A stretch of 62,933 nucleotides of DNA, counting the filler, from Asterionella formosa (lineage: Eukaryota): NCBI GenBank assembly GCA_002256025.1. It is 2 parts of 2 records of this genome, joined end to end, with 100 filler letters (N's around TTAATTAATTAA, not from the genome) between each part and the next. Parts side by side here need not be neighbours in the genome. Positions count along the whole stretch, not along the records: positions 1 to 31,427 come from NKIB01000678.1; 1 more part is not named here. One strand, written 5' to 3'. Below are positions 7,339 through 46,277 of the stretch, piece after piece. The notes beneath the pieces were generated by a model that saw nothing but the letters and a program-made list of their open reading frames with translations, was not told the origin of the DNA and did no database searches. Position 1 is the stretch's first letter. The number at the start of each line of letters is the position of its first letter. The position numbers were made by a program, and so were the translations under genes.

Positions 7339-7377
7339 TCTGTGAATCTGTGCAAGTTGTCTGCTTGAATAAGGGAG

Positions 7378-7716
7378 TGTGAGATATCTGATGGGTTTCC
7401 GGGTTGTGATTTGAACTCGAATTGTAACTTGCCACCGATTAATGTTTTTGTGTGATGGACATTTGAGGTTCATCTGTGGGTCTTCTTCTGGGTGTTATGA
7501 TGGCGATTGAACTATCGTCTGTAATGGGCCTTTTATGCAATATATGTGCTCATCATTCCTGAATATCTGAAGGCTTATGGGTCTTCGTTTTTCGCCGTTG
7601 TATTGGCGAGCATTTGCCTGGCTTGGATTATTGTAGATAAGGCAAAATACTTGTTACAATCATATAATTAAAATTAGACTTATTCCCCTGTGTCTACTGT
7701 CTTGCTGATTATAACA
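7378..7716 (+). repeat. Probable 3' LTR of the Copia element
   Basis: Polypurine tract GAATAAGGGAG (7367-7377) is immediately followed by TGTGAG. The right end at ...ATAACA (7716) is a guess. Confidence 0.55.
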
Positions 7717-7789
7717 AACTATGTTTATTTACGGATATTCGTCGGTTTCCCTCAAGGGACTCTCCAACAAAGCTGATGTAGTAGTATGC

Positions 7790-10102
7790 TCACGACAAAC
7801 ACAATGCGGTCCCACTTGACTCAGAGTGGCAACTATGAAGAACTAGGGCGATGGGTATGGCAATTTTTCTTTGCACCCATAAACTTGGTAAAGACCCAGC
7901 AAAAGTTTTCTCTCCCTCTCAACATCAAGAATTTGGGCTGGTATCTAAAAGGATGGGGCGGCACTTTTACTACATATCAAAACTGGATGATGCATGGGTT
8001 ACTCTTCGCCTTATTCGAGATAATGCTCAACAAGTGCGACAAGACTTCCTCTCTGGCCGATGTATGGAGGCGGCAGGAGTTCATAAGAATAAACCTCGAG
8101 AACAGGTCTTAAAGCAGATTAAACACGCCGAGTATTTGCAGAGAGGACTGTGGCCCAAGCTGAGAAAATATGCAAAGGGTGATATCTGCTCAAGTCTCAA
8201 CAAACTTGAAATTCCAATCTATGACTTCACAGGGGAAATCATCGAGTTTCGCACAGTGACTAACTCATCAGAAGTGTTTCACCATCTGCTCAAACGAAAC
8301 AGCAATCATTTCGCACAGGCTGCGGAAACGCTGTTTGTAAAAAGAATCTTTGGTCAAATATCTGCACCCATTTCAACAAAACAAATTTTCAGAATCGATC
8401 CTTGATGGAACAATTAATCTCGAGCAGTTCGACCTCAATGAGGCCTTCAGATTGTGCATACAGGAAATGAGGTATCCGGCAGGAAAGGATGGTAAGGATC
8501 CTATTTCTTCAGTACTAACCCTTGCCGACTTTCAGAAAGGCTTTAATACAGTGTACTCTCGGCCATTTCATAGCAGCTTCCAGTCTCAGCAGAACAGAGC
8601 AAGGTACTGTTGGCATACACTTCCATCCTGCAACCGTCAATGAAATATTCACTATGCGGGTCAACCTTCACAGTCACTGAAAGTGCTGAAATAAACAGGT
8701 AATATGTGTCCACTTTCCTAAAATGAATGGGTTTCCACTCCATGACAAAACATCTCCTATTTTTCGGCCCACCACCCTTGTTAGGATGTTTTGGTTTTAC
8801 TGATCCTGCACAGATCAAGGGATCTTTCATCTCCAGATGCTATTAAGTCATATACAGTGTTGTGACAAATTGGGTTTATTAATACGGATTCTTGTAGAAA
8901 CACTACAACTGATCATCAGCCTTCCTAAAGCCCCATTTACCTATTCCCTCAATATTTTCCTGTCATCTTTGGAGCGGTCTTGCTTGGATTACAAGCACAT
9001 GGGAATTGATCTCATCCCTTAAAGGGGCGATTCACCTCAGGGATTCATGGATCATTGGCCCCCAGCAAGAACTCGATGCAAATCTCATGCAGATATGGAT
9101 AACTCCACAGTGGAACTTTACTCCAAAGACTCTCAAAAGGCTGAATGCCTGCCGCCTCTATCTCCGCGTTATTATAGTGGCAGACATTAGCAACTCCACC
9201 GGGTTATACATATCCATGAATATCTTGAAAAGTCACCGACATACAGATAGAATCAGTTCATATACATGGCCACATCAGGATTTCCCTTCCTCACAGGCAT
9301 GGACACTATGGCATAAAATTCTAGGCCTAACAGTGATCAATTGATCAAGCAGAAGACTTTGTACTCCCCTGGGAAATTGGCTTCATCTTCCACTACATCA
9401 GAAATGGAAATACTTTTTCGATCCATCTAAACAGAGTCTTGTTGAAGAAATGGAGAGTGGGATGCAAAAGGTCCACAAACAAGCCCACACATTTTGTACT
9501 TTCCACAGCTCTTATTCTGTCCAGTTTCAGCGCCCACTCCTGATGTATTTGGTCACAATCACAGCGGAATCTTTAACAACCATCAAGATATCCGCTACCA
9601 AGCCGACAGTGCACAGACAACCACCATCTCCTCAAGTTCAGCCCATAGACACAGTGGACACATACATTAACCAATTACCTCTTCCTTTGCAGCATGCAAT
9701 TGGGGACTATCACTTCCCTCCACAATCATCAGAATTCACGTACATGGTTCTTCAAGGAAACGTGGTGATGGCGTGGACGAATCACCGGAGGAATGGATCG
9801 TATCTCATCATTCCGTGCAGAGGTTGGTGTTTTTTGGGAGGGATGGTAGCCCTAGACACCATGTTGTCTCTTCGTTACCCTGTGGCTCAAGAAAATCCCT
9901 TGTTTTCCCTAGATCTATACCTTGACAACTAGGCCCAGCTCCTTCAGCAACCCTGCCTCCGGATTATGACTTACTCAATTCAGCCATGACCATCGTGGCA
10001 AAGCATCACATGTCCCTCATTCCGTATCACGTGAGATCCCACCAGGATCACTTGGGGGGGGGGGGGGGGGGGGGATGGAAAAAGAAAGAAACNNNNNNNN
10101 NN

Positions 10103-10180
<78 letters not shown>

Positions 10181-11260
10181 CCCCCCCCCCCCCCCCCCCC
10201 CCCCGCCCCCCCCCCCCCCCCCCCCCCCAGTACCACAATCTACCATGGCCGATGAAATTGAACTGTGATGTCAATAAACTCACTTCACAAGCACGCCAAA
10301 ATACCAGCAACAAAGTTCAGCAACACCCATATCGATTTACATTATTCCTGGATGAGAAATGGATCACCAGCCATCACTCCATGGCCATTCGGAAGGCCAA
10401 CCATCGCAACTTGGTACAAAAATACATCATTTCCTGCACCAGTTGGGATACCAAAGAAATATTTGTTATGGTTGACTGGCCCGCTTGAGCACAGGCTGGA
10501 GACCAGGTTACCCACAACCAACGCATCACTGCCTTAAAACTATAATTTGACTTATTTGCAACAATTGAAGCAACACAAGTGCACGGAACCTGGTACTGAT
10601 GGTCATTGCCCACGATGTGTCACTTTTAACAAAGACTTTAATCATGTGGTTTGCCGCAAAAACACATTACCAGATTGGCAGAGCGCCTGGAGTGCATTCA
10701 CGACAGCAGTAAAAGGCCCCCTGACTACCTGTCACTTTGTGATACATGCTTTCTGCAGGGGTATGGCACCATGGATAGAGGGACAGCAGCACATCACTTG
10801 GGAAGGACCAATTCCTCAGCTCGATGATGACGAGGTTGGTCAACTCACATTTGAAGCCTTCCTCAACCAGCAAGATATCGGTTGGGACCAGGCTCTCTGA
10901 GGTAGAATCAGCCACAAATGGGGAAAAGCGAACGTAATGTATTGCCAGATCCGTGGCTTTCCTACAGAAACCACTCCTGACATCCAATGGTCCTCTAACT
11001 TGATCAATGATTTATGGATGTTTATTATTGACTGCTGGAATGCCCGAAATTCCTTTTTGTATGGAGAATCTAATGATGAACATCAGATTGCCATATTAAG
11101 CACAGAGGTGGATGCAGCCTGATGACAGATCATCATTCCTACTCCCTGGGGTGGTTTGAATAAATCATCATACATTGAGACAGAAATTGTTGTGGATTAA
11201 AACAGTGGAAACATCGCTACAGGCGTGGGACACCTCTCAAACATCACTACACCACGGTGA
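7790..11260 (+). pseudogene. Decayed non-LTR retrotransposon ORF2 with RT core deleted; retains RNase H remnant and C-terminal Cys/His finger
   Basis: Paralogous to 20520-24620 (LWPKLRKYAKG, HFAQA, SILDGT, LKRLNACRLYL). HVRSHQD...LNCDVNKL resembles an RNase H C-terminus; CPRC...FNHVVC finger; QQDIGWDQAL*GRIS; WNARN. Confidence 0.85.
10053..10228. other. Assembly gap with poly-G / Ns / poly-C artefact
   Basis: Homopolymer runs flank 10 Ns. The LINE frame reads HVRSHQD before the gap and NLPWPMKLNCD after it. Confidence 0.9.
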
Positions 11261-14083: not shown

Positions 14084-14935
14084 ATGACATTTCTTTGTGA
14101 AACGCTTCTATTAGTGAGTCTGTGCTTTTCTCCTGCCGCCAGCTTTGGCAGCAGTATGCTCCCTCACTTGATGCCCTTCGTGAGCGAGCCGCACCTGATG
14201 ACAGCAGCCGTTGTGTCAAGTTCAACAGCCTCAGTGGTTGCTGCTACAGCGTCCGCTCATTCCGTGGCGGCGAATAGCCTTCTCGCCACGTACTCAGCCT
14301 CACTTGCAGCTCACCCTCTCGCCACAAAGATGATCACGGGAGGTGTCTTATCTGTCACGGGCGACGCCATTGCTCAGTCTCGTGAGCCGGACGAGTACGA
14401 CACACGACGCGCAGTTTCCTTCATGGTCTTTGACATGACCTACCGAGCTTTGCAACACAACATTTTCCCAATCATTGGCGAAGTTTGCCGGGGCCAATTC
14501 TTCCTGGCTGCCGCTGCCTCCATCAGCCCTGTCTTGGCAGCGTCAACCGACCCCTTCTATTTTGCTGCCATGGAGCGAACGTTGGCCAGTCAACTGGGCG
14601 TTGTGCCGTTTATGTATTATCCGGCGTTCTTTGCGTTGACGGGAGTTGTGCAGGGTCTGTCTGCAGAGGGAACTGTGGAACGGGCCAAGGAGAAGTTTAT
14701 CCCACTCATGAAGAGGAACCTTTTGTTTTGGATCCCCGTTCAGTTTGTGCAATTTGGCTTTGTTGAAGATGGCCTGCAAATACCTTTTCTCTCCCTCTGT
14801 GGATTAATGTGGACGGTTATCCTTTCTGCCATGGCGGGATCCACCTCGGCATACAATGAGAAGTATGTAGCACTACCGGTCATGGAAGAAGAAAGGAATG
14901 TGAACTTGGAAGGCGATGTGGTGATTGTTAGATGA
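14084..14935 (+). CDS. Mpv17/PMP22-family membrane protein with N-terminal signal peptide (probable plastid bipartite presequence)
   Basis: YSASLAAHPLATKMITGGVLSVTGDAIAQ, YDTRRAVSF, FWIPVQFVQFGFV and LMWTVILS match the Mpv17/PMP22 family pattern. Hydrophobic N-terminus ends in AAS-F. Intact, GC-richer ORF. Confidence 0.88.
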   Translation: MTFLCETLLLVSLCFSPAASFGSSMLPHLMPFVSEPHLMTAAVVSSSTASVVAATASAHSVAANSLLATYSASLAAHPLATKMITGGVLSVTGDAIAQSREPDEYDTRRAVSFMVFDMTYRALQHNIFPIIGEVCRGQFFLAAAASISPVLAASTDPFYFAAMERTLASQLGVVPFMYYPAFFALTGVVQGLSAEGTVERAKEKFIPLMKRNLLFWIPVQFVQFGFVEDGLQIPFLSLCGLMWTVILSAMAGSTSAYNEKYVALPVMEEERNVNLEGDVVIVR

Positions 14936-20520: not shown

Positions 20521-23500
20521 TGGATGGACATTTGACTGGAATGTGTGAAACCAATGTTAATTGGCGAAATTTTTCATTCCGGGATAAATGGGAAAAGAAG
20601 ATGTCAAGGGGATGATATACAGAACTTCGTTTCAGCCATGCATTGTGTAATGAAGGAAAAGAAATGGTTCTTCAGTGTGGCGGGGTCAGCATGTTTTGTA
20701 CGGCACGCTTTCACTCCAGACTATTGGACTGTGGCTCCGACCAGGAACTGGGTAGGTGGTCATGGATGCGTTTTAAAGGGACAAGGGAGTTCAACTTTGT
20801 AATCATCACAGCATATCAAGTTAGTCAGAAAAGACATTCCGGGCTTGGTATGGAGACAACATATATGCAACAATGGAGAAAACGAAAAATTTCCACAATG
20901 ATAGTTGTAATCCCCGACAGCAATTTGGGAAAGCTCTTAGACAACAGATCCAATTTCTAGAAGCAAATGGAGATGAATTGATTCTGATGTTGGATGCAAA
21001 TGCAGATTTTGATGATGAGGAATTTTTTAACATGGTGTCTTTAACACAGATGGTGGATCTGCATGAAGGCTTACACACAAATAAAATGCCATCAACATAC
21101 AATAGAGGAAATCGAAAACTGGATTATATTTTGGGAACAGGAAAAATCTCAGCAGCTGTTACCAAAGGTGACATGACTACCTATGCCGATGGTTTAAAAT
21201 TTTCAGATCATCGCGCTTTGTTCATAGATCTTAAAGAAACGAAAGTTTTTAACGATAAAGGTAAAGACATTACAGCAAGGAAACATCGCGGACTCAGCAC
21301 AAAGAACAAGGATCAAGTAAAAGTATACTTGAAGTTGGTGAAGAAACAATTAACAGCCCATAATATTTTTGAACGTTGTCGGAAGCTAAAAGAATCGGCA
21401 CCCCATATGCAAGTCCAAGCGTTAAAACGGGAGTTGGACAGCATTTACACACAAGTTACAATTGCGGTATTACATGCAGAAAGGATGACATCCCGAGTAA
21501 ACTTTGGGCGTGGGTGGTCCCCACAGTTAGCAAAAGCAGGCAAAGAGGTAACATTTTGGAAAAACTGCTTAAGATGCCACAAGAAAGGGCGGGGTGATCC
21601 AGTTATGCAATTACCAAAGCCCAAACTCAAGGAATGTGGTCTCACAACATCAAGGTTGGAACAGGAATTCTTCAGGAATAAACTAGATGATGCATGGCTG
21701 AGGTAAAATATGGTACAAGACAATTCCAAAATACTTCGGAAACAATATTTGGAAAAACGATTAGAAGAACGAATTTTCAAAGTTGATAAACCCAACATTA
21801 AAAAACTCAAGGCAATACTCTCAGCCGATTATACAACCAAACTATGGCCAAAATTAAGAAGATACGCAAAGGGTGAAATTCGAACAAGCCTTCTTAATCG
21901 GTTAGAAAAACCTATATATGATGAGACAGGGGAGATCTTAGAGTTTCAAACCATCATGGATTCAGAGGAGACTTTCAGTCACTTAATTCAGAGAAACCTC
22001 ATACATTTTGCTCAAGCAAGTCAAGCCCCCTTTGTTGAAGGGCAGTGTGGACAATTTTTTTCTCCTTTCCAATTTAATGACTTTTCCAAGTCCATTCTTA
22101 ATGGGACAGTGGATCTCACACATTTGGACTTGAACCAGGCTATTAAGGCATGCATCAGAGAAATGGCAAACCCCCGCCCTAATGAGATGGGAACATCACC
22201 AGTCTTAGTGAATATTACAATTGAAGATTATAAATCCGGGGTTTAAGGCAGTATCAGAGAATACATCATCATCGCCTAGTGGACGTCACTTGGGACACTA
22301 CCGAGCGGCATTACAATCGGACTCTATATGATTTGTTCATTCAATTCTGATGTCCCTTCCCTTTGAATACGGTTTTACACTGGACCGGTGGACAAATGCG
22401 ACACAAGTGATGTTGGAAAAATAGTGGGGACACCACGTTTGGACAAATTGCGACTGATACAACTGTTAGAGGCAGACTTGAATATGGTAGTACGAATAGT
22501 TTTTGGAGGGAGGCTAATTCATAGAGCTGAGGACCGGAAGACTATTTCCTCTCTTCAATGGGGATCCAGGCCAAATAGGTCATCAATAGATGCAATTCTC
22601 ATGAAGGGGCTAACCTACAATGGGATAAGAATTCTCATAAAAGTTGCCATAATATTTAACAATGATGGAAAGGCAGCATTCGATCGAATGGTACCATCTG
22701 TTGGAGCAATTGCACTCTGCAGGCTAGGGGCAAGCAAAAACTCAGTTCAAGCTTTATTACAAATTTTGGAAAAGATGAAATATTGAGTTCAAACAGCACT
22801 TGGACTATCTGATGATTCTCAATCTAACCTTCAATTGGGAGGGACTTGGGAACCTTGCAGGGATCTGGGGCTTCCCCTTGTCTGTGGTTGGCTATAACTT
22901 GCGTTTTACTAGGGGCTATCTCCAAACGGTCATCAGGAATGATACTCAAAAACCCACGGAAAAATCTGTGTCAACACCGAGCAGCGGAAACCTATGTAGA
23001 CGACAAAGAATTGATCTTATCCCTGGATCACAATCACTTGAACATGATCACAAAGGAAATGCAAAGCATAGCTCAATATTGGGAGCAATTATTATACACA
23101 ACAGGGAGAGCTTTAGCTTTGGAGAAGTGTTTTTTCGTGGCCATGGTGTGGGAATTCCAAAACAATGAATACAAATTAAAGAGTAAATTGGAGATAAATG
23201 TCGAAATACAGTTAACATCAGGAGGTGACTACCAACAAATCACCACAATACCGCAGAAAGATGCACAGGAGGGACCAAGAAACTTAGGGGCAATGCTGTC
23301 CCCAGAAGGTAATCCCAGAGGGTAATAATAATGACGAACTTCGGACACTTATTCAGCAAGGCAAAACCATGAGTATGAACATATCAGCCTCCAAACTACT
23401 TTGATAGCATATCAAACTATGCTGCAACCAGCTATGAAATATCCGCCATGTGCATCGACATTCACCATGAAACAATGTTACCAAATAGATCAATCTTACC

Positions 23501-25869: not shown

Positions 25870-26005
25870 CTTCTCTTTGTTAGTATGATTGGGATAACGA
25901 AATGGATTAAATGAAAATGGGAAAATGAGTGAATGCACTTCTCTTTGTTAGTATGATTGGGATAACGAAATGGATTAAATGAAAATGGGAAAATGCGTGA
26001 ATGCA
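25870..26005. repeat. ~67-bp tandem duplication
   Basis: CTTCTCTTTGTTAGTATGATTGGGATAACGAAATGGATTAAATGAAAATGGGAAAATG occurs twice. Confidence 0.85.
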
Positions 26006-26649
26006 AACTCAGATCCATCAGGAATAAATGGAAAGCAGGGGAACAACGGCAAGAAGGCAACCAGTACTACTACAACAACCTTCAGAATTGGATTGGGGGG
26101 AAGGTGGAAGTGAAAGCGGCAATAATCATTGCGATGAGAGCATTGTAAAACATTCTGTAGCCAGCCACTCAAGGTATAGAAAGCAACATAAAACCATTCT
26201 TAAATATAGTTCTAAATTTCGATCCATTTCATCCTATTTTAGTAGACAGTGATATCGATGAGAATTACGATCATGCTAAGATAGATAAATGTATGACAAA
26301 GTATACACATCATAGGACCATGTTTAACTAATTATATGATGCAATGGTATTATTACTATGATAGTATCATCATACTTCAAGCTCAGCGTGAGGACCATGG
26401 TGGGGGAAAGGCTTGTTTCCCTCATGAAAGCATCAACTAGGTCATACTTGCTTAAGAAGACAGGCCCATGAAGGGGGTTGGCTGTGGCCACCTTGTGTAA
26501 AATGCGGGGAGGGCTTTTCGAAAATGCATAGACTCAGGGGGTGCCAGCCACTGTGTGCACCGGTATAGGTGTAGTCAACTATGGGGCATGGGCAGCAGTC
26601 CAGTTGGGGGAGATACAGAGTGTGGGTTCATGACAGATGGCAGTATAGT

Positions 26650-27885
26650 ATTGTGCGAACCACTAAGCTATTACCCAGTATCCCATTACAGCTAATAATT
26701 GATGTTAAGATGGATTTCACCCAAAAGGCCTGACTTGTGGTTGCTGGTGGACATATGACTGAGCCACCAACCGAAATGACATATTCCTCAGTTTTCTCCC
26801 AAGAAAGAAGTGTTCGAATAGCATTCCTCATGGCAGACCGAAATGGGCTCAGCATACATGCAGTGTGCAGACTACATCAGGAATGCTGCTGGCCCTAAAT
26901 TCGGGATTGATGAAGGGAAAAATTTATCATTGTTAGGGCCCATGGTTTGAAGATCTCTGGGGCTGCATGGTGCTCAAATTTTGCTCATGCCCTACAAGAC
27001 CTGAGTTTAACACCTACATATGCAGATCCAGATGTATGGATACATCCTGATGAAATATATGGAATCCAACAAGTCGAGGATATCTATTTTTAGTGATTAG
27101 AAACAAAGACATGTGACACTTATTGAAAAATTATTCGACATACTTACTTATTGTCAAATGAATATGCGATGCATACTTATTGACAAATGAAAATGCTTAC
27201 TAATAATTGTCAAAGCAAGCAAGAACATATTGACGAGATCAAGGAAAGTGTAAGATGTCTTGTTCAGGATAACATGAGTAATTAGGCAGGAGCAAGGCCA
27301 GATAGACTATTAACATATTGCTCAGAAATAAATGTAAGGTTTCAGCTTTAGTGATCTTAAACATGAGATCTGTGATATTCTCAAGGAATAAAGTTAGACA
27401 AGTTAACAGCGTCCAGCAACCAAGACAAAATGAGACCACTACTATGAATATTGCCAGGTATATGTTGATGACATTCTCTGCCTATCTGAAGACCCTACAA
27501 GTGCTCTCAAACAACTCGAACTAAATTCCTTTAACTATTGCTGTAAGGATGTGGGTCCACCGTCATACTACATAGGTGCAAAAATTGGAAGATTCATCAT
27601 TGAAGAAACTGGCAAACAAACATGGTACATGTTGGCAGAAAGTTAATTAGAAAAGCACTTCCTGTTATTGAAGATTGTTTTGGATCTCTCAAGACCATTT
27701 ATGGCCATTCACGCCTGGGCGCCCCTGCCACTCAAGAGTACCACCCAGGATTAGATGCTACAAAAGTCCTCTTCCAGGAAGACATTGAACTTTATCAAAC
27801 TTCCATTGGGATCATGCACTGGGCCATTGAGTTGGGGCAGATAGACCTTCCACAATGTGCAGTTACCATTCCAAGTGGGACATAA
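26650..27885 (+). pseudogene. Third Copia-type RT fragment, heavily decayed, with unrelated insert at ~27050-27440
   Basis: IDVKMDFTQKA*LVVAGGHMTEPP..TYSSV, SVRIAFL, AGPKFG, ADPDVW, YYEYCQVYVDDIL, GPPSYYIGAKI, YQTSIGIMHWAIELG. Confidence 0.85.
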
Positions 27886-28384
27886 TTCTTCAAAATGAAG
27901 GGCAACGACCTGAGGTCAGTTTTGCCTAATTCTAGAATTGCTAGAACTTGTATTATATACACCAATCCAATCAGAATGACTATAAACAGGAGGAGCTATA
28001 AGCAAGAGAATGATTGAAGCTTGTTGTGCTTCATGAGGGGAAGTGACCTAAAGTTTGGTAGCAACAATACATGAACAGAGGGTCTACCATGCAGACAATT
28101 TAGACATTTTTATGGCTACTACCAAAAGTACTTGGACTTGGCCACAAAGAATATCGAACAGGTTTATCTGTTCAGATTAGTCCAAAACCATATCCCGAAA
28201 AAGAAAAGGTGTAGATTGTAGACCTTTTTACAAACTCATGTAACCAATTTGTCACCTTTTTCCATCAGGCCTAATGAAAAAGCAACACAGTTTAGGAGGT
28301 TAGTACATAGGTGATAATTGCTTGGCATCTACTTGATTATTCATTCTGACAATGTAAGTCACAACAAAACAAATTGACATTGCT

Positions 28385-30520
28385 GTAGCCTACAGTGGAC
28401 ATGATGATGCACACCACAGTTTGGAAGAGGCCACAGGCACATTTGTATGTGACTTTTTAGCTACTACTACAACATACCTTTTCTTTGAGGTCTCTAGTCT
28501 CTGAAGTTTCCTGTTTGCAAGAAGGTAGATTTTGCAGCGAAATCCAAACGTGGGTGTTAGTCATGAAAGCATAACCAAGTTTACACCAATGTGAGAGCAA
28601 TGCTCCCCATGGTAAGATTTCATGATGATGCCCAACACATCAAGGAAGATGATGGACATACCTTTGGAGCCTTGGTACCCTTTGGAGCCTGTTGTTAAAG
28701 AATAAAAATGCTTTCGATTAGTCACAATAGAGTCGATTCACATTGCAGTACTAAATGGACCCGATCAATTGAAGAGCTTGAGATCAAAGAACTCAATGGG
28801 TTTTTTGGGTTAATCTGCAAATAACATCAAGCAAGGTACTTTCTCACTATAACTACATACCTTGGTCACAGGAACAACTGGAGCGGTTGGAGCCTTGGAA
28901 GCCTGAAGGAAAAGGATCAAATTGTGAAGTTAGTGAGTGAATATACAACAGTAGCCCACAGTGGACATGATGATGCAGACCACATTTTGGAAGAAGCATA
29001 CCTTGGGAGCCTGTTATAAAAGAATGAAAATGTTTTCGATTAGTCACAATAGAGTCAATTCACATTGCAGCATTACATGAACCCGATAATCAATGATTTT
29101 GACAACAAAGAACTCCAGGGTTTTCTTGGACAAATCTGCAAAATACCATCAAGCAAGGTGCTTTGTCACTTTAAGTACATACCTTGGTCACAGGAACAAC
29201 TGGAGCGGTTGGAGCCTTGGAAGCCTGAAGGTAAAGGATCAGATTGTGAAAGTCAGTGAGTGTACAACAGTCGCCCACAGTGGACGTGATGATGCACACC
29301 ACAGTTTGGAAGAGGCCACAGGCACATTTGTATGTGACTTTCTAGCTACTACTACAACATACCTTTTCTTTGAGGTCTCTAGTCTCTGAAGTTTCCTGTT
29401 TGCAAGAAGGTAGATTATGCAGCGAAATCCAAACGTGGGTGTTAGTCATGAAAGCATAACCAATTGACATTGCAGCACTAGTGCATGTGCAAGTTTACAC
29501 CAATTTGGGAGCAATGCTCCTCATGGTAAGATTTCATGATGATGCCAACACATCAAGGAAGATGATGGACATACCTTGGTACCCTTTGGAGCCTTGGTAC
29601 CCTTTGGAGCCTGTTGTTAAAGAATGAAAATGCTTTCGATTAGTCACAATAGAGTCGATTCACATTGCAGTACTAAATAGACCGGATTCATTGAAGAGCT
29701 TGAGATCAAAGAACTCAATGGGTCTTTTGGGTTAATCTGCAAATAACATCAAGCAAGGTACTTTCTCACTATAACTACATACCTTGGTCACAGGAACAAC
29801 TGGAGCGGTTGGAGCCTTGGAAGCCTGAAGGTAAAGGATCAAATTGTGAAGTTAGTGAGTGAATATACAACAGTAGCCCACAGTGGACATGATGATGCAG
29901 ACCACATTTTGGAAGAAGCATACCTTGGGAGCCTGTTATAAAAGAATGAAAATGTTTTCGATTAGTCACAATAGAGTCAATTCACATTGCAGCATTACAT
30001 GAACCCGATAATCAATGATTTTGACAACAAAGAACTCCAGGGTTTTCTTGGACAAATCTGCAAAATACCATCAAGCAAGGTGCTTTGTCACTTTAAGTAC
30101 ATACCTTGGTCACAGGAACAACTGGAGCGGTTGGAGCCTTGGAAGCCTGAAGGTAAAGGATCAGATTGTGAAAGTCAGTGAATGTACAACAGTCGCCCAC
30201 AGTGGACATGATGATGCACACCACAGTTTGAAAGAGGCATACCTTGGGAGCCTGTTATAAAAGAATGAAAATGCTTTAGATGAGTCACAATAGAGTCAAT
30301 CCACATTGCAGTATTGCATGAACCCGATTAATCGACGATCCTGAGAACAAAGAACTCCATGGTTTTCTTGGACAAGTCTGAAAATATCATCAAGCAAGGT
30401 GCCTTGTCACTATAAGTACATACCTTGGTTGCAGGAACAACTGGAGCTGTTGGAGCCTTGGAAGCCTGAAGGAAAAGGATCAAATTGTGAAAGTTAGTGA
30501 ATGTACAACAGTAGCCAGCT
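28385..30520. repeat. Tandem array of ~320-bp exon-intron units with a 922-bp higher-order duplication
   Basis: The 42-nt exon recurs at 28861, 29183, 29783, 30105 and 30424. 28861/29783, 29002/29924 and 29183/30105 are each offset by exactly 922 bp. Confidence 0.9.
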
Positions 30521-30824
30521 GCCGGTTTTGCTCTCTTAGTCACTACAACATACCTTGAGGACTCTTTTATGCTGTCAGGGTTCAGATGATGGAGAAGAAA
30601 GACAGATTCAAAATGTAAGTAAAATGTAAAACACAAAATCTTCGAAAGCAGCAGTTTTATGCTCCTCGACCGAGCTTCTCACTCTGCACCAGACATTGAT
30701 TCAACGCAGGCGGATGCAAACGCATGGATCATCCCTGTTTTTGGCGTACCTCTGAGGTCATGGTAGAGTCTGCCATGGTCGAGTAAACCGTAGCAAGTAA
30801 GAGAAGAGAACGAATGGCCTTCAT
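28478..30824 (-). CDS. Microexon gene encoding a secreted Lys/Pro/Ala/Thr-rich KxxK + RxL (silaffin-like) protein; 3' end not identified
   Basis: 14 exons, all CAG|exon|GT and all multiples of 3: 30824-30750, 30571-30554, 30465-30424, 30251-30243, 30146-30105, 29932-29924, 29824-29783, 29610-29575, 29395-29363, 29224-29183, 29010-29002, 28902-28861, 28688-28662, 28510-28478. The spliced product is 153 aa with no stop and starts with a signal peptide. Confidence 0.8.
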
Positions 30825-31427
30825 GTTGATGAGTGAGAAACCGGGTATATTGATGTTCAATTTTGAGTTTTATGAAACTCCTTGTGGTATGAAACGTTTG
30901 GAACCGATATACCGGTAGGCCAATAGTCTAATGAATTTTGCCCAAGTACCGGTACCGGTAATTATGTTCAAAGCAAGTCTTATGACTAATTCCCGAGTAC
31001 CAGTAATTTTGATCAAAGCAAAGAGACCATAATGTTTTCTTTGTTATCAACAAAACAACATCATGTGGTCGACATTGTTTAATTCTTGTTTAGTTATCTG
31101 ATATACCGGTAAATGAATCTTTTGCAGTCATACACAGCTGTACCTGGTACCAGGTACCCCGGTACCCTTTGCCAGTCATTATGTTCAGCCGGTGAGTTCA
31201 GGACCATGGTGGCTACTACCGGGGTACGGGAATACCGATTTGTGTGTTACAGATACCTTCATGCAATGTCAAGCAACTGTCTATGTTATATGGCGTTTTG
31301 GGGGGGTACCAGGTACAACCAAAAAACTGAGAGTCATCTTTATTTCACCCTATGTATGTTAGGACTCAAGTTATTTTACCGGAACTGGAAAATTAAAGCC
31401 CAGATCAATTTTGCTGTAGTCCTGTTC

Positions 31428-31527
31428 NNNNNNNNNNNNNNNNNNNNNNNNNNNNNNNNNNNNNNNNNNNNTTAATTAATTAANNNNNNNNNNNNNNNNN
31501 NNNNNNNNNNNNNNNNNNNNNNNNNNN
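31428..31527. other. Artificial contig/scaffold linker (N-run, TTAATTAATTAA, N-run)
   Basis: A six-frame-stop spacer embedded in Ns. Confidence 0.9.
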
Positions 31528-31871
31528 AGAACAACCTAAACTAGATTAGTAAACTCACAATAAGAATATAGAAACGGAAAGAGAAACGAACGTCTCTATC
31601 TATAGTCTTCTTTGTCTAACGATATAGATCTATACAAAAGGTAATACTTTAACAGCTTGACAGTGGTGAAAATATGGTATTGGGAAAGGCAAATATTCTA
31701 CCCAGTGGTAACAGGTACTGGGGGGTAGAATTTTTTTCACATTTTGGTAGAAAATTCTACCAACGGACCAATAGAACCCTGCAGTATGCTATGGTATTGT
31801 CCAAGAAATTCTACCACAAAACAACATGGTATGAAATGGGATTGAAGTAAAAAAATAAAAAAAATATCAAC

Positions 31872-33354
31872 ATGGCAACAATGTCAACAAGAAGAGTAAA
31901 TGAGCCTACACAATCCCCTGTTTACAAAAGTGTCCTTATTGCTATGATGTCATACAGAGATGCTGGCATAGAATATTCTAAAAGCTATGAGTTTAGTCCA
32001 GAGGAACTTGGGGAAGTTACACCTGGGATGTCTATAAATGGATGGCTATGAAAGCAGCGTATGGCAGTCCTGATCCAAACAATGATGACAATCCAAAACA
32101 TGGCCAGTCTTCTTCCCTGGAATACTACAAAAAGGCGTTGTCGTATTTTATGCCAAATTGACTCTCCACTTGGAAAGATATTATGCACAGTGGCAATCCA
32201 ACAAGGTCTGTGCCTGTCAATAACCTCATCAAGGCAGTAAAAAAGGAAGTCCGCAGACAAGGGAAACCATCACAAGTAAGGAGACCCCTAGAATCCCAAG
32301 AGTTCTCCAATACAATGCATATCCTTCATTCATTCAAGGACAGTATCCGTCAGTATCAGTTGCCTACACTGTGTGCCTTTCAATTCCACTTGGTTGGCCG
32401 AATTGATGATTGTGTCCAATTAACAAATATATACCTAACTGAAAATCTTCGATTTCCTTTCACTCTGATGGCCAAGCTGTGTTGGACAAAAAACGCTAAA
32501 GAAGAGAGGGAGGCACCAAACCAGGTACTCATCGCATCCATGTTGCAAGACTATTGCGTTCTCCTTACCTTGGCCGTTCATCTTGAGACAGAATTTATGG
32601 AACAACGCGCATTAGTACCCGAAAATCAATGAGTGTTTTCGCTACAAACCAACAATCGATCAAATGCTAAAAGAAAGGCCTATACAATTCTGCACAATGA
32701 TGTATGGGAAAGTAGTGAGTTCAAAAAATGAACAATGGTTTGATTGGCACACACAGCCTTCGGAAGTACACATCAACACATGGTGCACGTCCTCGAAATG
32801 GCTGCTCCCGGGATGATGTTGCCTTCCGTGGACGCTGGAAACGGCGCACAGAACAAGTTGACACTTACATTGATGTTGAGCTACCTTACCCAGACGCCAA
32901 GGTTGCGACAGCCCATTGTACTATTGGCGACCCATGCAAGTATGTTCTGAATGAAGAAAGCGGTGTGTCTGATGATTGGCTTCTGCAATATGTAGTGCCA
33001 AATATATGCGTGCAGTTTCCATGTAATGTGGCACTAACACTGGCACGTCCACTCCTTTGGGCGGTTTTTGAGCCAAGTCTACAGGGTTTCTTGCCAGGCA
33101 AGCTGACACAACGGATTCAGATGGCATACGCACCACTTGTACGTAATCTACCACCAGGTACAAATCCTGTGGGGAAACGGCTAATTGTTGTGAATGGTGC
33201 AGAGGCAGAACTCTACATTGACGAAATCTGGATCCAGATGATTTTTCGGACAATTTGGGTGAAAAAATCGCTGCAGTGTCAACAGGAGCGAGTAGCTGCA
33301 GCTTCAACAGTAAATATTGGAGGAGGAGGCGTACATCCACAACTACGAGTCTAA
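31872..33354 (+). pseudogene. Tyrosine-recombinase ORF of a Crypton-like DNA transposon, disrupted
   Basis: Catalytic set in the correct order: FQFHLVGRIDD (R), GTHSLRKY (HxxR), RGRWK, VDTYID (Y). SGNPTRSVPVNNLIK lies upstream. No RT nearby; stops and frameshifts present. Confidence 0.8.
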
Positions 33355-43282: not shown

Positions 43283-46277
43283 TCGGTAACAGACAGTGAA
43301 CAAATTGAATGGTACCGACATGGTTCTTGTGAGAAATCAGTGCTGCAAAACTTGGTATAAAATCAGTTTCATACCAGGCATTGGTATTCTCACATTTTGA
43401 ATAGTATGCTTCATTGCAAACTGTGATTAAATAAACTCCTAAACAGCAACATGAAATGCAATTGAATGTGGGATATAACCTTTTGAATTTTCGCCCTCCC
43501 CAAATATGAATTGACCCTTCACCTAATTCCAAGGCTTCTTGAACTGATGAGGCATATCTTCTTCTTCTTGTCATTTTTCTTTTTCTTGTTTGTGTAGGAG
43601 CTACAATGATTTCATAACTTATACAATCCCCATCCGGCTCCTTTTCTTCTGTGTTGCAATTGGCAGAAGATTGCAGCATGTTGCCCTCTATCATGCCTTT
43701 GACTGAGTTGCCTGTTGAAGACAAAGACGGCAGCAAGTTGTCTGTGCCACAATCTAGCTGTAGCTGTTGAAACAAGTGAATACCCAGATTTTCGTTTCTC
43801 TTTTCTCTCAGGTTTTTCATCATCGCTGCTGCTGATCTCATAGTCACTGGTCTACTCATAATCATTTGTTGATTGAGCTTGAACACTGTTGCTAACATCA
43901 GGTCCTTCCAAAATTTCAGCAAAACATTGTGAAAAGTCACAGCCACTGAATGTGGTGTCACAGACATTGCCAAGCTGTGGCAATGTCAACTCCATGGAGA
44001 CAGAGTCATTGGTGTCACTGATCTCTTGGGTTTTTCATCATCGCTGCTGCTGATATCATAGTCACTGGTCTCCTCATAATCATTTGTTGATTGAGCTTGA
44101 ACACTGTTGCTAACATCAGGTCTTTCCAAACATTCAGCAAAACGTTGTGAAAAAGTCACAGCCAATGAAAGTGGTGTCACAGACATTGCCAACCTGTGGC
44201 AATGTCAACTCCATGGAGACAGAGTCATTGGTGTCACTGGGATTAAGGGTCAAGTCATACATGGATTCCACAACAGCACGGAATCTACTGCTAGCTGCCA
44301 CATCCATGCGCTCTTGGATAGTTGTGCATCTGCAGATGCTGTCTCTGCTGGTATCTGGCATAATGGGATCAAAATCAATCCCAAAACCGGTTTCATATGC
44401 AGAAACATCATTTTTGGCCCAACCACATTGTTGGTTCAGAATTGAATTAACTTCTCTAAGGTATTTGGTCCAGTTTGGACGGAGTTTTCCCTTTTGAACT
44501 TCACTTGCAAGTACACTGTTCATTACACATTTCAAAAGTCTGTTGATGTTTTCGACTGAACCCTGATCACTGGGCTTTAGGGGCCTACCAGTGACTGTCA
44601 GTATTGTTTGATTCCACCTTTTCAACATACCCACAACTTGTTCAGCTGTGAACTCAGAACCATTATCTGTGTGAAAGATATGCGGATATCCAATCAATCG
44701 AAAGAGAGAGTTTAATTCAAAGCAGACATACTTTGCATTTTTGTTTGGAATAGCTCTTAAATAGCATAAGCCAGTGAAGTGATCCTTCACAACCATAATC
44801 TATCGCATTACCTGACCATAAACATTGCGTCGCTCATTGGCATGATAATCAATTAAGTCAATTTGCATGCGATCATGAATTTCAGCAGAATGTATAGGAC
44901 ATCGGGCTCCCTTAGATTTCGGAATTTGAGGATGTGCATGAATACACACAGGACACACACTGATAAATGCATTTACATGTTGTATTGTGATATTGTAAAC
45001 ATGACTATTAACCTCTCTCCATGTAACAGATGATTTTTTCAAGTGACCAAGACTCTAGTGAGCATCATATATGGCATCAAACATTTCCTTGCATTGAAGA
45101 AGCTTTCTCCCCACATTATCTCCTTTTTTCACACTATCTCTCCAGATAACATAGAGGCTTTTTATGAGATTGCCTTCCACATCTTTCTTTGATCTCACTG
45201 TATACTTTTTTACAAGTGAATAACCAATTCGATGCTGTCGCCATATCTCTGGATTATCCCAGTTTTCAATAAAATACACAACTTCATTTTATTTCTCATC
45301 AATTATGTCACATGATCTAGTTTTTCCTGTTCCTGTTGTGTTATACGTAATTTCATTGTATTTCTCATCAGTCATGTCACATGACCCTGCTTTTCCTGTT
45401 CCTGATGTGTTCTTTCCTTTGTTCCTGCTGTAATTCTTGCAGTCTTTTTCTTTGTTCTTGATTTAGCATTTTCGATTCTCTTTGCAGCCCATGTTGCAGT
45501 CATTGTTCCGGCTTCCACTTTTGGAGTTTCTCCTGGTGGTACTGTTGCCTTTTCATTCCTTGTTGCAGCCGTTGTTCCGGTTTCCGTATCGACTGGAGTT
45601 GTACCTGTGTCCGCCTTTTCATTCCTTGTTGTTGTCATTGCTCCAGTTTCCGCATTGACAGGAGTTGTACCTGTGCTCGCCTTTTCATTCCTTGTTGCTG
45701 TCGTTGCTCCAGTTTCCTCATCCACAGGAGTTGTACCTGTGCCCACCTTTTCATTCCTTGTTGCTGTTGTTGTTCCGGTTTTGGCATTGACTGGAGTTGT
45801 ACCTGTGCACGCCTTTTCATTCTTTGTTGCTGTCGTTGCTCCGGTTTCCGCAGTGACTGGAGTTGTGCCTGATCCCACTTTTCATTCCTTGTTGCTGTCG
45901 TTGTTCCGGTTTTGGCATCGACTGGAGATGTACCTATGTACGCCTTTTCATTCTTTGTTGCTCCAGTTGTTCCGGTTTCCGCATGATTGACTGGAGTTGT
46001 ACCGGTGCACGCCTTTTCATTTCCTTGTTGCTATCGTTGCTCCGGTTTCCGCATTGACTGGAGGTTTGCCTGATCCCGCGTTTTCATTGAAAAAACCAAA
46101 AGCTACAGCGTTGAAATGCGTGCGAGCGGATTCTCTCATTCTCTGTGCATCACCAATACTGACAGTGGCATTGCCATGATCATTGGATGAAGATGTAGAA
46201 ACATATGAGAATTCACTCACCACATACTCTTCATCACTACTGTCTTCATTGCGATTCTTCTTCTTCGAAGAATTCAT
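43283..46277 (-). pseudogene. 5' half of Ginger-like ORF: repeat-rich N-terminus, H2C2 finger, DDE integrase core, start of Ulp1-like domain
   Basis: ORF-track fragments 46017-46277, 45372-45878, 45055-45279, 44800-45042, 44134-44796 and 43224-43973 carry the motifs in order. Confidence 0.88.
45540..46075 (-). repeat. 60-bp coding minisatellite (~9 units, TGTTPVNAETGATTATRNEK)
   Basis: The unit GGAGTTGTACCTGTG..CGCCTTTTCATTCCTTGTTGCTGTCGTTGCTCCGGTTTCCGCATTGACT recurs at 60-bp period. Confidence 0.9.

What the first reader, a model, noticed from the sequence alone, without database searches (positions are those of the whole stretch)
28478..30824. Hidden 14-microexon gene for a secreted silaffin-like KxxK/RxL protein, disguised as a satellite array
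Seen in sequence: on the minus strand each repeat unit carries tiny segments bounded by a pyrimidine-rich CAG acceptor and a GTA(T/C)G donor, separated by introns of 88-179 nt. They splice to MKAIRSLLLLATVYSTMADSTMTSE|HKRVLK|ASKAPTAPVVPATK|APK|ASKAPTAPVVPVTK|APK|ASKAPTAPVVPVTK|APKGTKAPKGTK|ETSETRDLKEK|ASKAPTAPVVPVTK|APK|ASKAPTAPVVPVTK|APKGTKAPK|ETSETRDLKEK (153 aa, 27 Lys, no stop). The ORF track misses it. Established: diatom silaffins and related biosilica proteins are secreted, low-complexity, rich in KxxK motifs (modified lysines) and processed at RxL motifs. Here KxxK clusters (KAPKASK, KAPKGTKAPKGTK) are delimited by RVL and RDL. Inference: a cell-wall/biosilica or extracellular-matrix precursor whose peptide modules are each encoded by one exon.
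Basis: partly seen in the sequence, partly recalled or inferred. Interest (0 to 1): 0.92.

Follow-up and report, generated by a model that had tools for sequence, protein, structure and literature searches.

The report
Spliced micro-exon gene, lysine-rich secreted diatom protein
What looks like a satellite repeat is a real, strongly expressed diatom gene built from fifteen tiny exons that splice into a small secreted protein rich in regularly spaced lysines, which resembles the peptides diatoms use to build their silica shells although that role has not been shown.

Summary
All 14 proposed exons lie at the stated minus-strand coordinates. All are phase 0, with GTA(T/C)G donors and pyrimidine-rich CAG acceptors.

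RNA contigs from four lake or freshwater metatranscriptome runs (three studies) carry joints at every class of predicted junction. This includes the 18-nt exon 2 and the 9-nt APK exon. Spliced contigs are about 40-400 times deeper than intron-bearing ones in two runs.

A 15th exon (GCC TGA) supplies the missing stop. The product is 154 aa.

Three database ORFs (P0121-P0123) are partly spliced forms of a second family member with the same exon boundaries.

The host is most likely a diatom.

The protein has a signal-peptide-like N-terminus. Every Arg and Leu after it sits in an RxL motif. It has 15 KxxK motifs (0 of 10,000 shuffles reach this) and one match to the published penta-lysine silica-targeting pattern. 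It is serine-poor (5.6%), so it fails the classical silaffin-like composition screen.

The silica role is inferred. The spliced protein could not be searched against databases.

The parts
30825..30856 (-). Probable 5' UTR (about 32 nt). The transcript start is not mapped.
   Evidence: RNA contigs of X2 (record 15, up to 30856) and X5 (record 30, up to 30853) end here. Contig ends are only a weak hint of a start.
30750..30824 (-). Exon 1, 75 nt. It holds the ATG, a signal-peptide-like N-terminus (basic n-region, Leu-rich core, small residues at -3 and -1 before residue 19) and the start of a short acidic propeptide.
   Evidence: One search gives the coordinates and the GTACG donor. One search gives the hydropathy (9-residue windows 3-7 score 1.7-2.0). 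One search shows the joint 30750 to exon 2 to 30465 in X2, X4 and X5.
30554..30571 (-). Exon 2, 18 nt (HKRVLK). It carries the first RxL (RVL) after the signal peptide.
   Evidence: tables 5 and 5c: 16 letters plus AG lie between exon 1 and exon 3 in X2 (depth 2492.7), X4 and X5. They equal exon 2 with CAA in place of CAT (Q for H). An X5 loose end at 30553 runs on into exon 3.
30424..30465 (-). Exon 3, 42 nt. Module A (ASKAPTAPVVPATK).
   Evidence: Joints to exon 2 and to the APK micro-exon are.
30243..30251 (-). Exon 4, 9 nt (APK).
   Evidence: the X4 loose end at 30148 and the table 5c row X4 30467->30104 show the 9 letters GCTCCCAAG lying between two 42-nt exons.
30105..30146 (-). Exon 5, 42 nt. 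Module A (ASKAPTAPVVPVTK).
   Evidence: It is identical in DNA to exons 7, 10 and 12.
29924..29932 (-). Exon 6, 9 nt (APK).
   Evidence: The junction class A->APK->A is seen. The copy cannot be told apart from exons 4 and 11.
29783..29824 (-). Exon 7, 42 nt. Module A.
   Evidence: The joint 29610/30105 (X2, X4) and the X5 loose end at 29612 show A joined to exon 8.
29575..29610 (-). Exon 8, 36 nt (APKGTKAPKGTK). Together with the last Lys of exon 7 it forms the single penta-lysine-pattern match (residues 79-91).
   Evidence: The joint 29395/29575 has depth 10703.7 in X2 and 4814.3 in X5.
29363..29395 (-). Exon 9, 33 nt (ETSETRDLKEK). Acidic module with RDL.
   Evidence: One search shows the joint to exon 8, and loose ends or 5c rows (X1, X4, X5) that run on into a module-A exon.
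29183..29224 (-). Exon 10, 42 nt. Module A. Start of the second super-repeat.
   Evidence: 885-nt super-repeat.
29002..29010 (-). Exon 11, 9 nt (APK).
28861..28902 (-). Exon 12, 42 nt. Module A.
   Evidence: The joint 28688/28861 is seen in X2 and in X5 (depth 6004.1).
28662..28688 (-). Exon 13, 27 nt (APKGTKAPK).
   Evidence: Joints 28688/28861 (X2, X5) and 28510/28662 (X1) are.
28478..28510 (-). Exon 14, 33 nt (ETSETRDLKEK). Second RDL.
27726..28270 (-). Exon 15. It holds GCC TGA (Ala plus stop, 28270-28265) followed by at least 539 nt of 3' UTR.
   Evidence: joint 28270/28478 (skips 207 nt, GT..AG) on a 572-nt X2 contig of depth 955.2 that runs on to 27726. An X4 contig also joins a 33-nt C-type exon to this exon. 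One search gives the translation.
28385..30523 (-). Repeat scaffold. Exon-plus-intron units of about 319 nt are nested in an 885-nt super-repeat (exons 5-9 copied as exons 10-14).

Best explanation
This is a real, highly expressed nuclear gene of a freshwater diatom, on the minus strand from about 30856 to 27726 or beyond. It has 15 exons. The 13 internal exons are micro-exons of 9-42 nt, all in phase 0, separated by short GT-AG introns of 88-207 nt. The array grew by tandem duplication of exon-plus-intron units.

The mRNA encodes a 154-aa precursor with these parts:
- an ER signal peptide (about residues 1-18);
- a short acidic propeptide ending in RVL;
- two basic, disordered repeat blocks, each ending in RDL.

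Each repeat block is built from three modules:
- A, a Pro/Ala/Val/Thr spacer flanked by Lys;
- B, a pure K-x-x-K cluster;
- C, an acidic piece with RDL.

Shown: the exons, the splicing, the stop codon, strong expression of the spliced form, the motif content, and a second family member that keeps the Lys register and the RDL motif.

Inferred: the precursor enters the secretory pathway and is cut at the RxL motifs, as other diatom wall proteins are. This would yield peptides of about 69 and 51 aa (net charge +11 and +7). Their regularly spaced lysines, including one penta-lysine cluster, would direct them into the silica-forming compartment or frustule. There they would act as silaffin-type polycationic matrix peptides, or as wall-bound matrix peptides, probably with modified lysines and hydroxylated or glycosylated Pro and Thr.
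For: Gene structure:
- All 14 exons lie at the stated coordinates with canonical splice signals.
- CTRAY branch-like sites lie 31-33 nt before the acceptor in 11 of 14 introns.
- 13 of 14 introns carry in-frame stops.

Splicing. RNA contigs of runs X1, X2, X4 and X5 (studies P1, P2, P3) show joints for all eight junction classes:
- exon 1 to 2 to 3 (joint 30467/30750 with exon 2's letters between);
- A to APK to A (X4 only among the rows shown);
- A to B' (28688/28861; 29610/30105);
- B' to C (29395/29575; 28510/28662);
- C to A (5c rows and loose ends);
- C to the terminal exon (28270/28478).

Depth. Spliced contigs have depths of 955-10704 in X2 and 4814-7492 in X5 (a PolyA library). Intron-bearing contigs have depths of 12.8-52.7 (X2) and 16.4-41.3 (X5, leaving out one contig of depth 3).

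Independent support. P0123 lacks exactly 48 residues (144 nt, beginning VC and ending PQ) that P0122 and P0121 keep between TRDLKK and ASKAP. P0121 joins VTK directly to PPKATKGPKAPK. The same variant junctions appear as loose ends in X2, in 20 and 11 contigs.

Selection:
- Exons 5 and 7 are 42/42 identical, while the introns that follow them differ at 25 of 168 aligned sites.
- Against P0121, the exon is 14/14 identical in protein, while the intron read-through is 9/34.
- Of the 40 differences listed, table 3 (18 more were not shown), 24 lie in introns. None lies in exons 3-14.
- Between the two family members, all four Lys of the B' module and the TRDLK core are kept, while the x positions vary.

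Protein:
- The N-terminus has the n/h/c layout of a signal peptide.
- After residue 19, all 3 Arg and all 3 Leu sit in RxL motifs.
- There are 15 overlapping KxxK motifs, against a shuffle mean of 4.75. None of 10,000 shuffles reaches 15.
- There is one match to K..K..K.{1,2}K..K. That pattern is present in 29% of soluble silica proteins and 1.5% of background proteomes (bioRxiv 10.1101/2021.09.18.460806, section 14).
- RxL is described as a general processing motif of diatom silica proteins (PMC4557024, passages).
- PT repeats and dihydroxyproline are reported in TpSil1-type proteins (PMC5501833, passages).

Host. The neighbouring Mpv17-like ORF has 7 organism-named rows among its 120 best hits. 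Six are diatoms, at up to 64% identity.
Against: - No experiment or tool here shows secretion, RxL cleavage, lysine modification or silica association.
- No signal-peptide predictor was available. That call rests on inspection and hydropathy.
- Serine is 5.6% of residues 31-154. The protein therefore fails the Scheffel composition screen of at least 18% Ser and at least 10% Lys (quoted in PMC3478156).
- It also fails a strict reading of the Brembu screen, KXXK with X = S or G (PMC5501833).
- Phosphoserine, said to matter for targeting alongside the lysines (PMC4557024), has few possible sites.
- Only one penta-lysine match exists. The second super-repeat lacks it.
- All RNA evidence comes from assembled contigs laid at 90% likeness or more, from mixed communities. 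Repeated exons are identical, so the order and number of repeats in the mRNA are not established. Some contigs come from variants or paralogues.
- Depth was not compared with any other gene.
- The diatom assignment rests on the hits of one neighbouring gene.
- No full-length spliced homologue was found.
Confidence: 0.5

Rival explanations
1. A secreted structural glycoprotein of the organic wall layer or mucilage, such as the casing or the colony-linking pads. It would be extensin- or arabinogalactan-protein-like, or elastin-like. The Pro/Ala/Thr/Val spacers would be hydroxylated and glycosylated, and the lysines would serve for cross-linking or charge. It would have no direct role in silica formation.
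For: The composition of residues 31-154 is K 20%, A 19%, P 18%, T 14%, V 11% and S 6%. Hydrophobic, Pro-rich stretches alternate with Lys stretches, each on its own small in-frame exon. From recall, this resembles Lys-rich arabinogalactan proteins and tropoelastin more than the Ser/Lys-rich silaffins. The protein fails the Ser criterion. The very high expression in plankton samples fits any abundant wall protein.
Against: The penta-lysine pattern and dense KxxK motifs are enriched in silica-bound proteins. RxL-delimited repeats are a hallmark of processed silica proteins. The two roles are not mutually exclusive.
Confidence: 0.27
2. A polyprotein precursor of secreted cationic bioactive peptides, for example antimicrobial, allelopathic or signalling peptides. 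The peptides would be released by cleavage at RxL and act outside the cell.
For: A signal peptide is followed by repeated basic peptides between processing-like sites. Predicted products have net charges of +11 and +7. Lys/Pro-rich cationic peptides are a known antimicrobial type (recall).
Against: No homology or activity data exist. The peptides have neither amphipathic nor Cys-stabilised features. In diatoms, RxL processing has been described for wall proteins.
Confidence: 0.08
3. Not a protein-coding gene. On this reading it is a satellite-like tandem repeat whose splice-like signals and open micro-frames arise by chance or belong to a non-coding transcript.
For: Tandem repeat structure. 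No long ORF.
Against: Spliced contigs are seen at every junction class and are about 40-400 times deeper than unspliced ones in two runs. All exon types have lengths that are multiples of 3. Exons are conserved against diverged introns. An in-frame start, a signal-like N-terminus and a stop in the last exon are all present.
Confidence: 0.02

Closest known systems
Silaffins and silaffin-like or KXXK-motif proteins of diatoms (Sil1p of Cylindrotheca fusiformis; TpSil1-4 and the silaffin-like proteins of Thalassiosira pseudonana)
   Same: ER signal peptide. An RxL soon after it and at the ends of repeat units. Lysines clustered in KxxK motifs. A penta-lysine-pattern match. Low complexity and repeats. 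Pro/Thr-rich stretches as in TpSil1-type proteins. Basic predicted pI.
   Different: Serine-poor (5.6%). The x positions are mostly A, P, G and T rather than S and G. There is no biochemical evidence. The gene is split into 15 exons, whereas I found no report of micro-exon structure for diatom wall genes. Silaffins share no sequence similarity with each other, so homology cannot decide membership.
Micro-exon genes (MEGs) of Schistosoma
   Same: A signal-peptide exon is followed by 10-20 very short exons whose lengths are mostly multiples of three (6-81 bp). They encode small, secreted, disordered proteins that automatic annotation misses (PMC10526429: abstract in the search listing, passages).
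   Different: There is no sequence relation, and the MEG N-terminal hydrophobic motif is absent. Introns here are short (88-207 nt), against up to about 5 kb in MEGs. The exons are tandem duplicates that encode a repeat protein. Alternative splicing, central to MEGs, is not shown here. The host is a photosynthetic protist, not a parasite.
Cingulins
   Same: Secreted diatom girdle-band proteins with repetitive KXXK-containing regions and RxL motifs.
   Different: Cingulins alternate KXXK regions with Trp- or Tyr-rich regions. This protein has no Trp, and its only Tyr lies in the signal peptide.
Tropoelastin and other exon-per-module structural proteins (from recall)
   Same: Hydrophobic Pro/Val/Ala modules and Lys-Ala or Lys-Pro modules alternate. 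Each sits on its own small exon, and all exons share one phase, so units can be added or lost in frame.
   Different: Animal protein with no homology. The lysine chemistry (lysyl-oxidase cross-links) is not known to apply here.

Membership tests
Silaffin / silaffin-like proteins | N-terminal ER signal peptide | tested here: met
   a basic n-region (K2, R5), a Leu-rich core (9-residue hydropathy 1.7-2.0 at windows 3-7), and small residues at -3 and -1 before residue 19. This was judged by inspection only. No dedicated predictor was available.
Silaffin / silaffin-like proteins | RxL processing motif after the signal peptide and at the C-terminal ends of repeat units (PMC4557024) | tested here: met
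   RVL at residues 28-30, RDL at 97-99 and 148-150. After residue 19, all 3 Arg and all 3 Leu lie in these motifs. Cleavage itself was not tested.
Silaffin / silaffin-like proteins | Clustered KxxK motifs | tested here: met
   15 overlapping KxxK motifs in residues 31-154, against a shuffle mean of 4.75 (sd 1.78). None of 10,000 shuffles reaches 15.
Silaffin / silaffin-like proteins | Penta-lysine cluster K..K..K.{1,2}K..K, or at least two K..K motifs within 10 residues (bioRxiv 10.1101/2021.09.18.460806) | tested here: met
   one regex match at residues 79-91, spanning the exon 7/exon 8 junction. Many K..K pairs lie within 10 residues. The homologue P0121 also gives K..K..K..K..K across the same junction.
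Silaffin / silaffin-like proteins | Composition screen: at least 18% Ser and at least 10% Lys per 100 aa, plus a signal peptide (Scheffel et al., as quoted in PMC3478156) | tested here: not met
   Lys is 20.2%, but Ser is only 5.6% of residues 31-154.
Silaffin / silaffin-like proteins | KXXK with X = S or G, motifs 1-6 residues apart (screen of PMC5501833) | tested here: not met
   The motifs here are KAPK, KASK and KGTK. None has both x positions as S or G.
Silaffin / silaffin-like proteins | Tight association with biosilica; polyamine- or methyl-modified lysines; phosphorylation | not testable with these tools
   Needs biochemistry on the organism.
Cingulins | KXXK regions alternating with Trp- or Tyr-rich regions | tested here: not met
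   no Trp. The single Tyr lies in the signal peptide.
Schistosoma micro-exon genes (as an architecture) | 10-20 very short exons (6-81 bp), mostly multiples of three, after a signal-peptide exon (PMC10526429) | tested here: met
   15 exons. The internal ones are 9-42 nt, and all are multiples of 3.
Schistosoma micro-exon genes (as a homologous family) | Conserved hydrophobic or aromatic motif after the signal peptide; trematode lineage | tested here: not met
   The residues after the signal peptide are acidic and polar, and there is no Phe or Trp anywhere. The host is most likely a diatom.
Schistosoma micro-exon genes (as an architecture) | Protein variation by alternative splicing of the micro-exons | tested here: inconclusive
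   the apparent long skips (for example 28261->29362 and 29609->30423) join exons that are identical or near-identical to the expected neighbours. They are ambiguous placements or variants, not proof of exon skipping.

The most novel reading that the evidence does not exclude
Diatoms possess a so far unannotated class of micro-exon genes for biosilica or wall peptides. In this class each functional element sits on its own phase-0 cassette exon: the Lys cluster, the Pro-rich spacer and the RxL cut site. The silica-targeting penta-lysine cluster would then exist only after splicing. Unequal crossing-over in the repeated introns, or exon skipping, could re-tune peptide length and lysine number quickly between strains. 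This would be a MEG-like diversification system applied to mineral patterning. Standard gene callers miss such genes, so silica proteome and transcriptome screens would have overlooked the class.
Probability: 0.2. Interest if true: 0.85.

Novelty: new variant of a known kind. Interest (0 to 1): 0.62.

Why it matters
First, it is a clean, RNA-backed case of a gene that ORF finders and gene callers miss. The public protein collections searched here returned only read-through fragments of a family member (P0121-P0123), not a full spliced protein. An abundant transcript of lake diatom communities is therefore effectively unannotated.

Second, a gene with 14 introns and 9-nt exons is unusual for diatoms, which from recall are intron-poor. 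The library held no relevant paper on diatom micro-exons.

Third, if the protein is silica-associated, it widens the silaffin concept to a Ser-poor, Pro/Ala/Thr-rich type from a freshwater species. It would also tie peptide modularity to exon structure. Both points can be tested by tagging, by biosilica proteomics with a corrected database, and by long-read cDNA.

Tried and rejected
I then searched with a 49-aa unbroken window stretch consisting of exon 4, the stop-free intron 4 and exon 5. It gave 1 hit among 3 candidates (P0121, 24 bits, E = 8.7), which inspection showed to be a true relative.
- Searching onward with P0121 gave only P0122 and P0123 in both protein libraries. No full-length spliced homologue and no named protein turned up.
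- The search for related loci with P0121 in metagenome contigs matched 330 pattern stretches, none confirmed.
- A degenerate DNA pattern for SKAPTAPVVP in metagenome contigs gave one locus, L001. It is high-GC, bacterial-looking DNA and a chance match.
- An ESM Atlas search with the spliced part of P0121 gave no usable hit. An Atlas search on the ADF-H/villin-headpiece ORF gave no help with taxonomy.
- Rfam found nothing at gathering score in 26000-33000.
- I first read the X4 joint 28261->29362 as skipping of exons 10-14. I rejected this because exons 9 and 14 are identical over the 33 letters matched. The 9-nt 'left out' at 29574 in X1 is ambiguous in the same way, since it may be the exon 13 copy.
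- Eleven further runs (X3, X6-X15) hold small shares of the sampled words.
- The spliced 154-aa protein itself was not submitted to any search or fold tool, because joined sequences may not be typed. Homology to named silaffins or to diatom transcriptome proteins therefore remains untested.
- Poulsen et al. 2013 (PMC3711277) is not held. Its criteria are cited through the papers that quote it.
Full report
**1. The observation**

The exon lengths are 75, 18, 42, 9, 42, 9, 42, 36, 33, 42, 9, 42, 27 and 33 nt. Every length is a multiple of 3. Every internal exon follows a pyrimidine-rich tract ending in CAG. Every exon is followed by GTATG, except exon 1, which has GTACG. The introns between them measure 88-179 nt.

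Eleven of the 14 introns carry a CTRAY branch-like site 31-33 nt before the acceptor, and 13 of 14 have in-frame stops. The string AAGGTATG occurs 13 times on the minus strand in the bins covering 28-32 kb. It occurs once elsewhere on that strand and never on the plus strand.

The region is also a tandem repeat. TRF reports a 319-nt period with 2.9 copies. The repeat finder reports five 300-nt copies nested in an 885-nt super-repeat. No ORF over 102 aa overlaps the coding span 28265-30824, and no Rfam family matches. The description 'hidden gene disguised as a satellite' is therefore accurate at the level of sequence.

**2. Is it spliced and expressed?**

Fifteen RNA runs from 12 studies, all freshwater, lake, aquatic or algal metatranscriptomes, hold part of 27600-31400. 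I laid four of them: X1, X2, X4 and X5, from studies P1, P2 and P3. All four are kept as assembled contigs.

Joints with GT..AG ends on the gene's strand fall exactly at the predicted sites:
- 28510/28662 (X1);
- 28688/28861 (X2; X5 at depth 6004.1);
- 29395/29575 (X2 at depth 10703.7; X5 at 4814.3);
- 29610/30105 (X2, X4), which is equivalent to exon 7 to exon 8 because exons 5 and 7 are identical.

Exon 1 is joined to exon 3 through 16 intervening letters plus AG. These reproduce the 18-nt exon 2 with CAA in place of CAT (X2 at depth 2492.7; also X4 and X5).

The 9-nt exon is seen as GCTCCCAAG lying between two 42-nt exons. This comes from the X4 loose end at 30148 and the X4 row in table 5c. 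Among the rows shown, X4 is the only run with this junction, and 332 pieces and 21 loose ends were not displayed. Loose ends and 5c rows in X1, X4 and X5 show the C module running on into an A exon.

All eight junction classes therefore have RNA support.

In X2 and X5, contigs that carry intron sequence have depths of 12.8-52.7 and 16.4-41.3 (plus one X5 contig at depth 3). Spliced or exon-only contigs have depths of 955-10704 and 4814-7492. The signal is thus mature RNA, not contaminating DNA. X5 is a PolyA library. I had no second read-laying run, so I could not compare depth with another gene. 'Highly expressed' means high relative to its own unspliced form and high in absolute word depth.

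**3. The missing end**

A 572-nt X2 contig (depth 955.2) joins 28478 to 28270 across a 207-nt GT..AG intron and runs on to 27726. The new exon starts with GCC TGA. The CDS is 465 nt, giving 154 aa plus a stop. An X4 contig also joins a 33-nt C-type exon to this terminal exon. Because exons 9 and 14 are identical, this is not evidence of exon skipping.

**4. A second family member**

No stretch of true coding sequence reaches the 40-aa minimum of the protein search. I therefore searched with the unbroken 49-aa stretch made of exon 4, the stop-free intron 4 and exon 5. This found P0121. Searching with P0121 found P0122 and P0123. The exhaustive HMMER scan found the same two.

Aligned, the three are read-through ORFs on partly spliced RNA or on DNA of a homologue:
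- P0122 keeps both introns.
- P0123 lacks exactly 48 residues (144 nt, beginning VC and ending PQ) between TRDLKK and ASKAP.
- P0121 joins VTK directly to PPKATKGPKAPK and then reads into the next intron.

The same variant junctions occur as loose ends in X2, in 20 and 11 contigs.

Comparing the homologue with the window:
- Module A is 14/14 identical, while the intron read-through is 9/34.
- In the Lys module, all four lysines keep their register while 5 of 8 other positions differ.
- The TRDLK core of module C is kept.

Within the window, exons 5 and 7 are 42/42 identical, while the introns after them differ at 25 of 168 sites. Exons 5-9 and 10-14 are a recent copy, with introns 97-100% alike. 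Of the 40 differences between window and contigs that were listed (18 more were not shown), 24 lie in introns, 2 in exon 1 and none in exons 3-14. All of this points to selection on the peptide, and specifically on the lysine spacing and the RDL motif.

**5. The host**

The neighbouring intron-free ORF at 14084-14935 is an Mpv17/PMP22 protein. Among its 120 best hits, 7 rows carry an organism name. Six of those are diatoms: Seminavis, Attheya, Epithemia, a Bacillariaceae MAG, Chaetoceros, and a name beginning 'Amphip'. Identities reach 64%. The seventh is a ciliate transcriptome. A 99%-identical protein exists only in unnamed JGI and ENA data.

Together with the lake runs that I laid, the host is most likely a freshwater diatom that is not close to any annotated genome. 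This rests on one gene.

**6. The protein**

Residues 1-18 have the layout of a signal peptide. The cleavage region lacks the aromatic residue that, from recall, marks diatom plastid presequences. Residues 19-30 are acidic or polar and end in RVL.

Residues 31-154 are K 20.2%, A 19.4%, P 17.7%, T 13.7%, V 11.3% and S 5.6%. There is no Cys, Trp or Phe. The predicted pI is 10.4.

After residue 19, all 3 Arg and all 3 Leu lie in RxL motifs (RVL, and RDL twice). There are 15 overlapping KxxK motifs, against 4.75 expected, and none of 10,000 shuffles reaches 15. There is one match to the penta-lysine pattern K..K..K.{1,2}K..K, at residues 79-91. It is formed across the exon 7/exon 8 junction. Cutting after each RxL would give peptides of 12, 69, 51 and 4 residues.

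**7. Comparison with known kinds**

From passages of the review PMC4557024: RxL follows the signal peptide and ends the repeat units in silaffins, frustulins, cingulins and silacidins. KXXK clustering is thought to guide lysine modification.

From section 14 of bioRxiv 10.1101/2021.09.18.460806: the penta-lysine pattern occurs in 29% of soluble silica proteins against 1.5% of background proteomes. Two K..K motifs within 10 residues can also target a protein to silica.

From PMC5501833: many silicon-responsive KXXK proteins also carry PT repeats.

These features are met. Against membership: the Scheffel screen needs at least 18% Ser (PMC3478156), the Brembu screen needs X = S or G, and cingulins need Trp- or Tyr-rich regions. 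None of these is met.

The protein therefore works, on paper, like a silaffin-type precursor, but it is not a member of the classically screened set. Because silaffins share no sequence similarity with each other, homology would not settle membership in any case.

In gene architecture the nearest parallel is the schistosome micro-exon genes. These have a signal-peptide exon followed by 10-20 exons of 6-81 bp, mostly multiples of three, and automatic annotation misses them (PMC10526429). Here the introns are short, the exons are tandem duplicates, and alternative splicing is not shown. Two literature searches for diatom plus microexon or micro-exon returned one paper each, both unrelated by title.

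**8. Verdict**

The gene, its splicing, its stop codon and its strong expression are established. I put the gene at about 0.97.

I consider secretion likely. The frustule or silica role is the best single reading, at about 0.5. A non-silica wall or matrix glycoprotein is the main rival.

The main open points are:
- the full-length isoform structure;
- a formal signal-peptide prediction;
- a database search with the spliced protein, which I could not submit;
- any biochemistry.

Noticed in passing
window 4487-7338 (+), 44134-44796 (-), 20873-21706 (+): Fragments of mobile elements. There are weak RVT_2 and integrase-core (rve) Pfam matches typical of Copia-type retrotransposons, and a sub-threshold endonuclease/exonuclease/phosphatase match that could be LINE-like. 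The micro-exon gene sits in transposon-rich surroundings.
   Followed up: partly
window 14084-14935 (+): An intron-free ORF for an Mpv17/PMP22-family membrane protein (Pfam E = 5e-17). Its best organism-named relatives are diatoms. It shows that ordinary genes nearby are not split like the micro-exon gene.
   Followed up: yes
window 55380-56099 (-): An ORF that combines a cofilin/ADF-H domain with a C-terminal villin headpiece. It starts at GTG, so an upstream exon is likely.
   Followed up: partly
window 31140-31200 and 31428-31527: A GGTACC-rich low-complexity stretch and two 44-N assembly gaps lie 300-700 nt upstream of the gene's start. RNA contigs diverge from the window around 30945-31180 (loose ends). 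The promoter region may therefore be misassembled or variable between strains.
   Followed up: no
loose ends at 30783, 30785, 28498, 29383: The lake runs contain further variants of the signal-peptide exon and of the module before TRDLK, for example forms reading ...GPSAGTRDL and ...TTGPTAVTRDLK. This points to a multi-member family or to marked strain diversity.
   Followed up: partly
window 30147-30242 (intron 4): This 96-nt intron is a multiple of 3 and has no in-frame stop. Retaining it would add 32 residues in frame. No retained-intron coding form was looked for.
   Followed up: no
L001 4001-4029: The only metagenome match to the degenerate exon pattern lies in high-GC, bacterial-looking DNA and is a chance hit.
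   Followed up: yes
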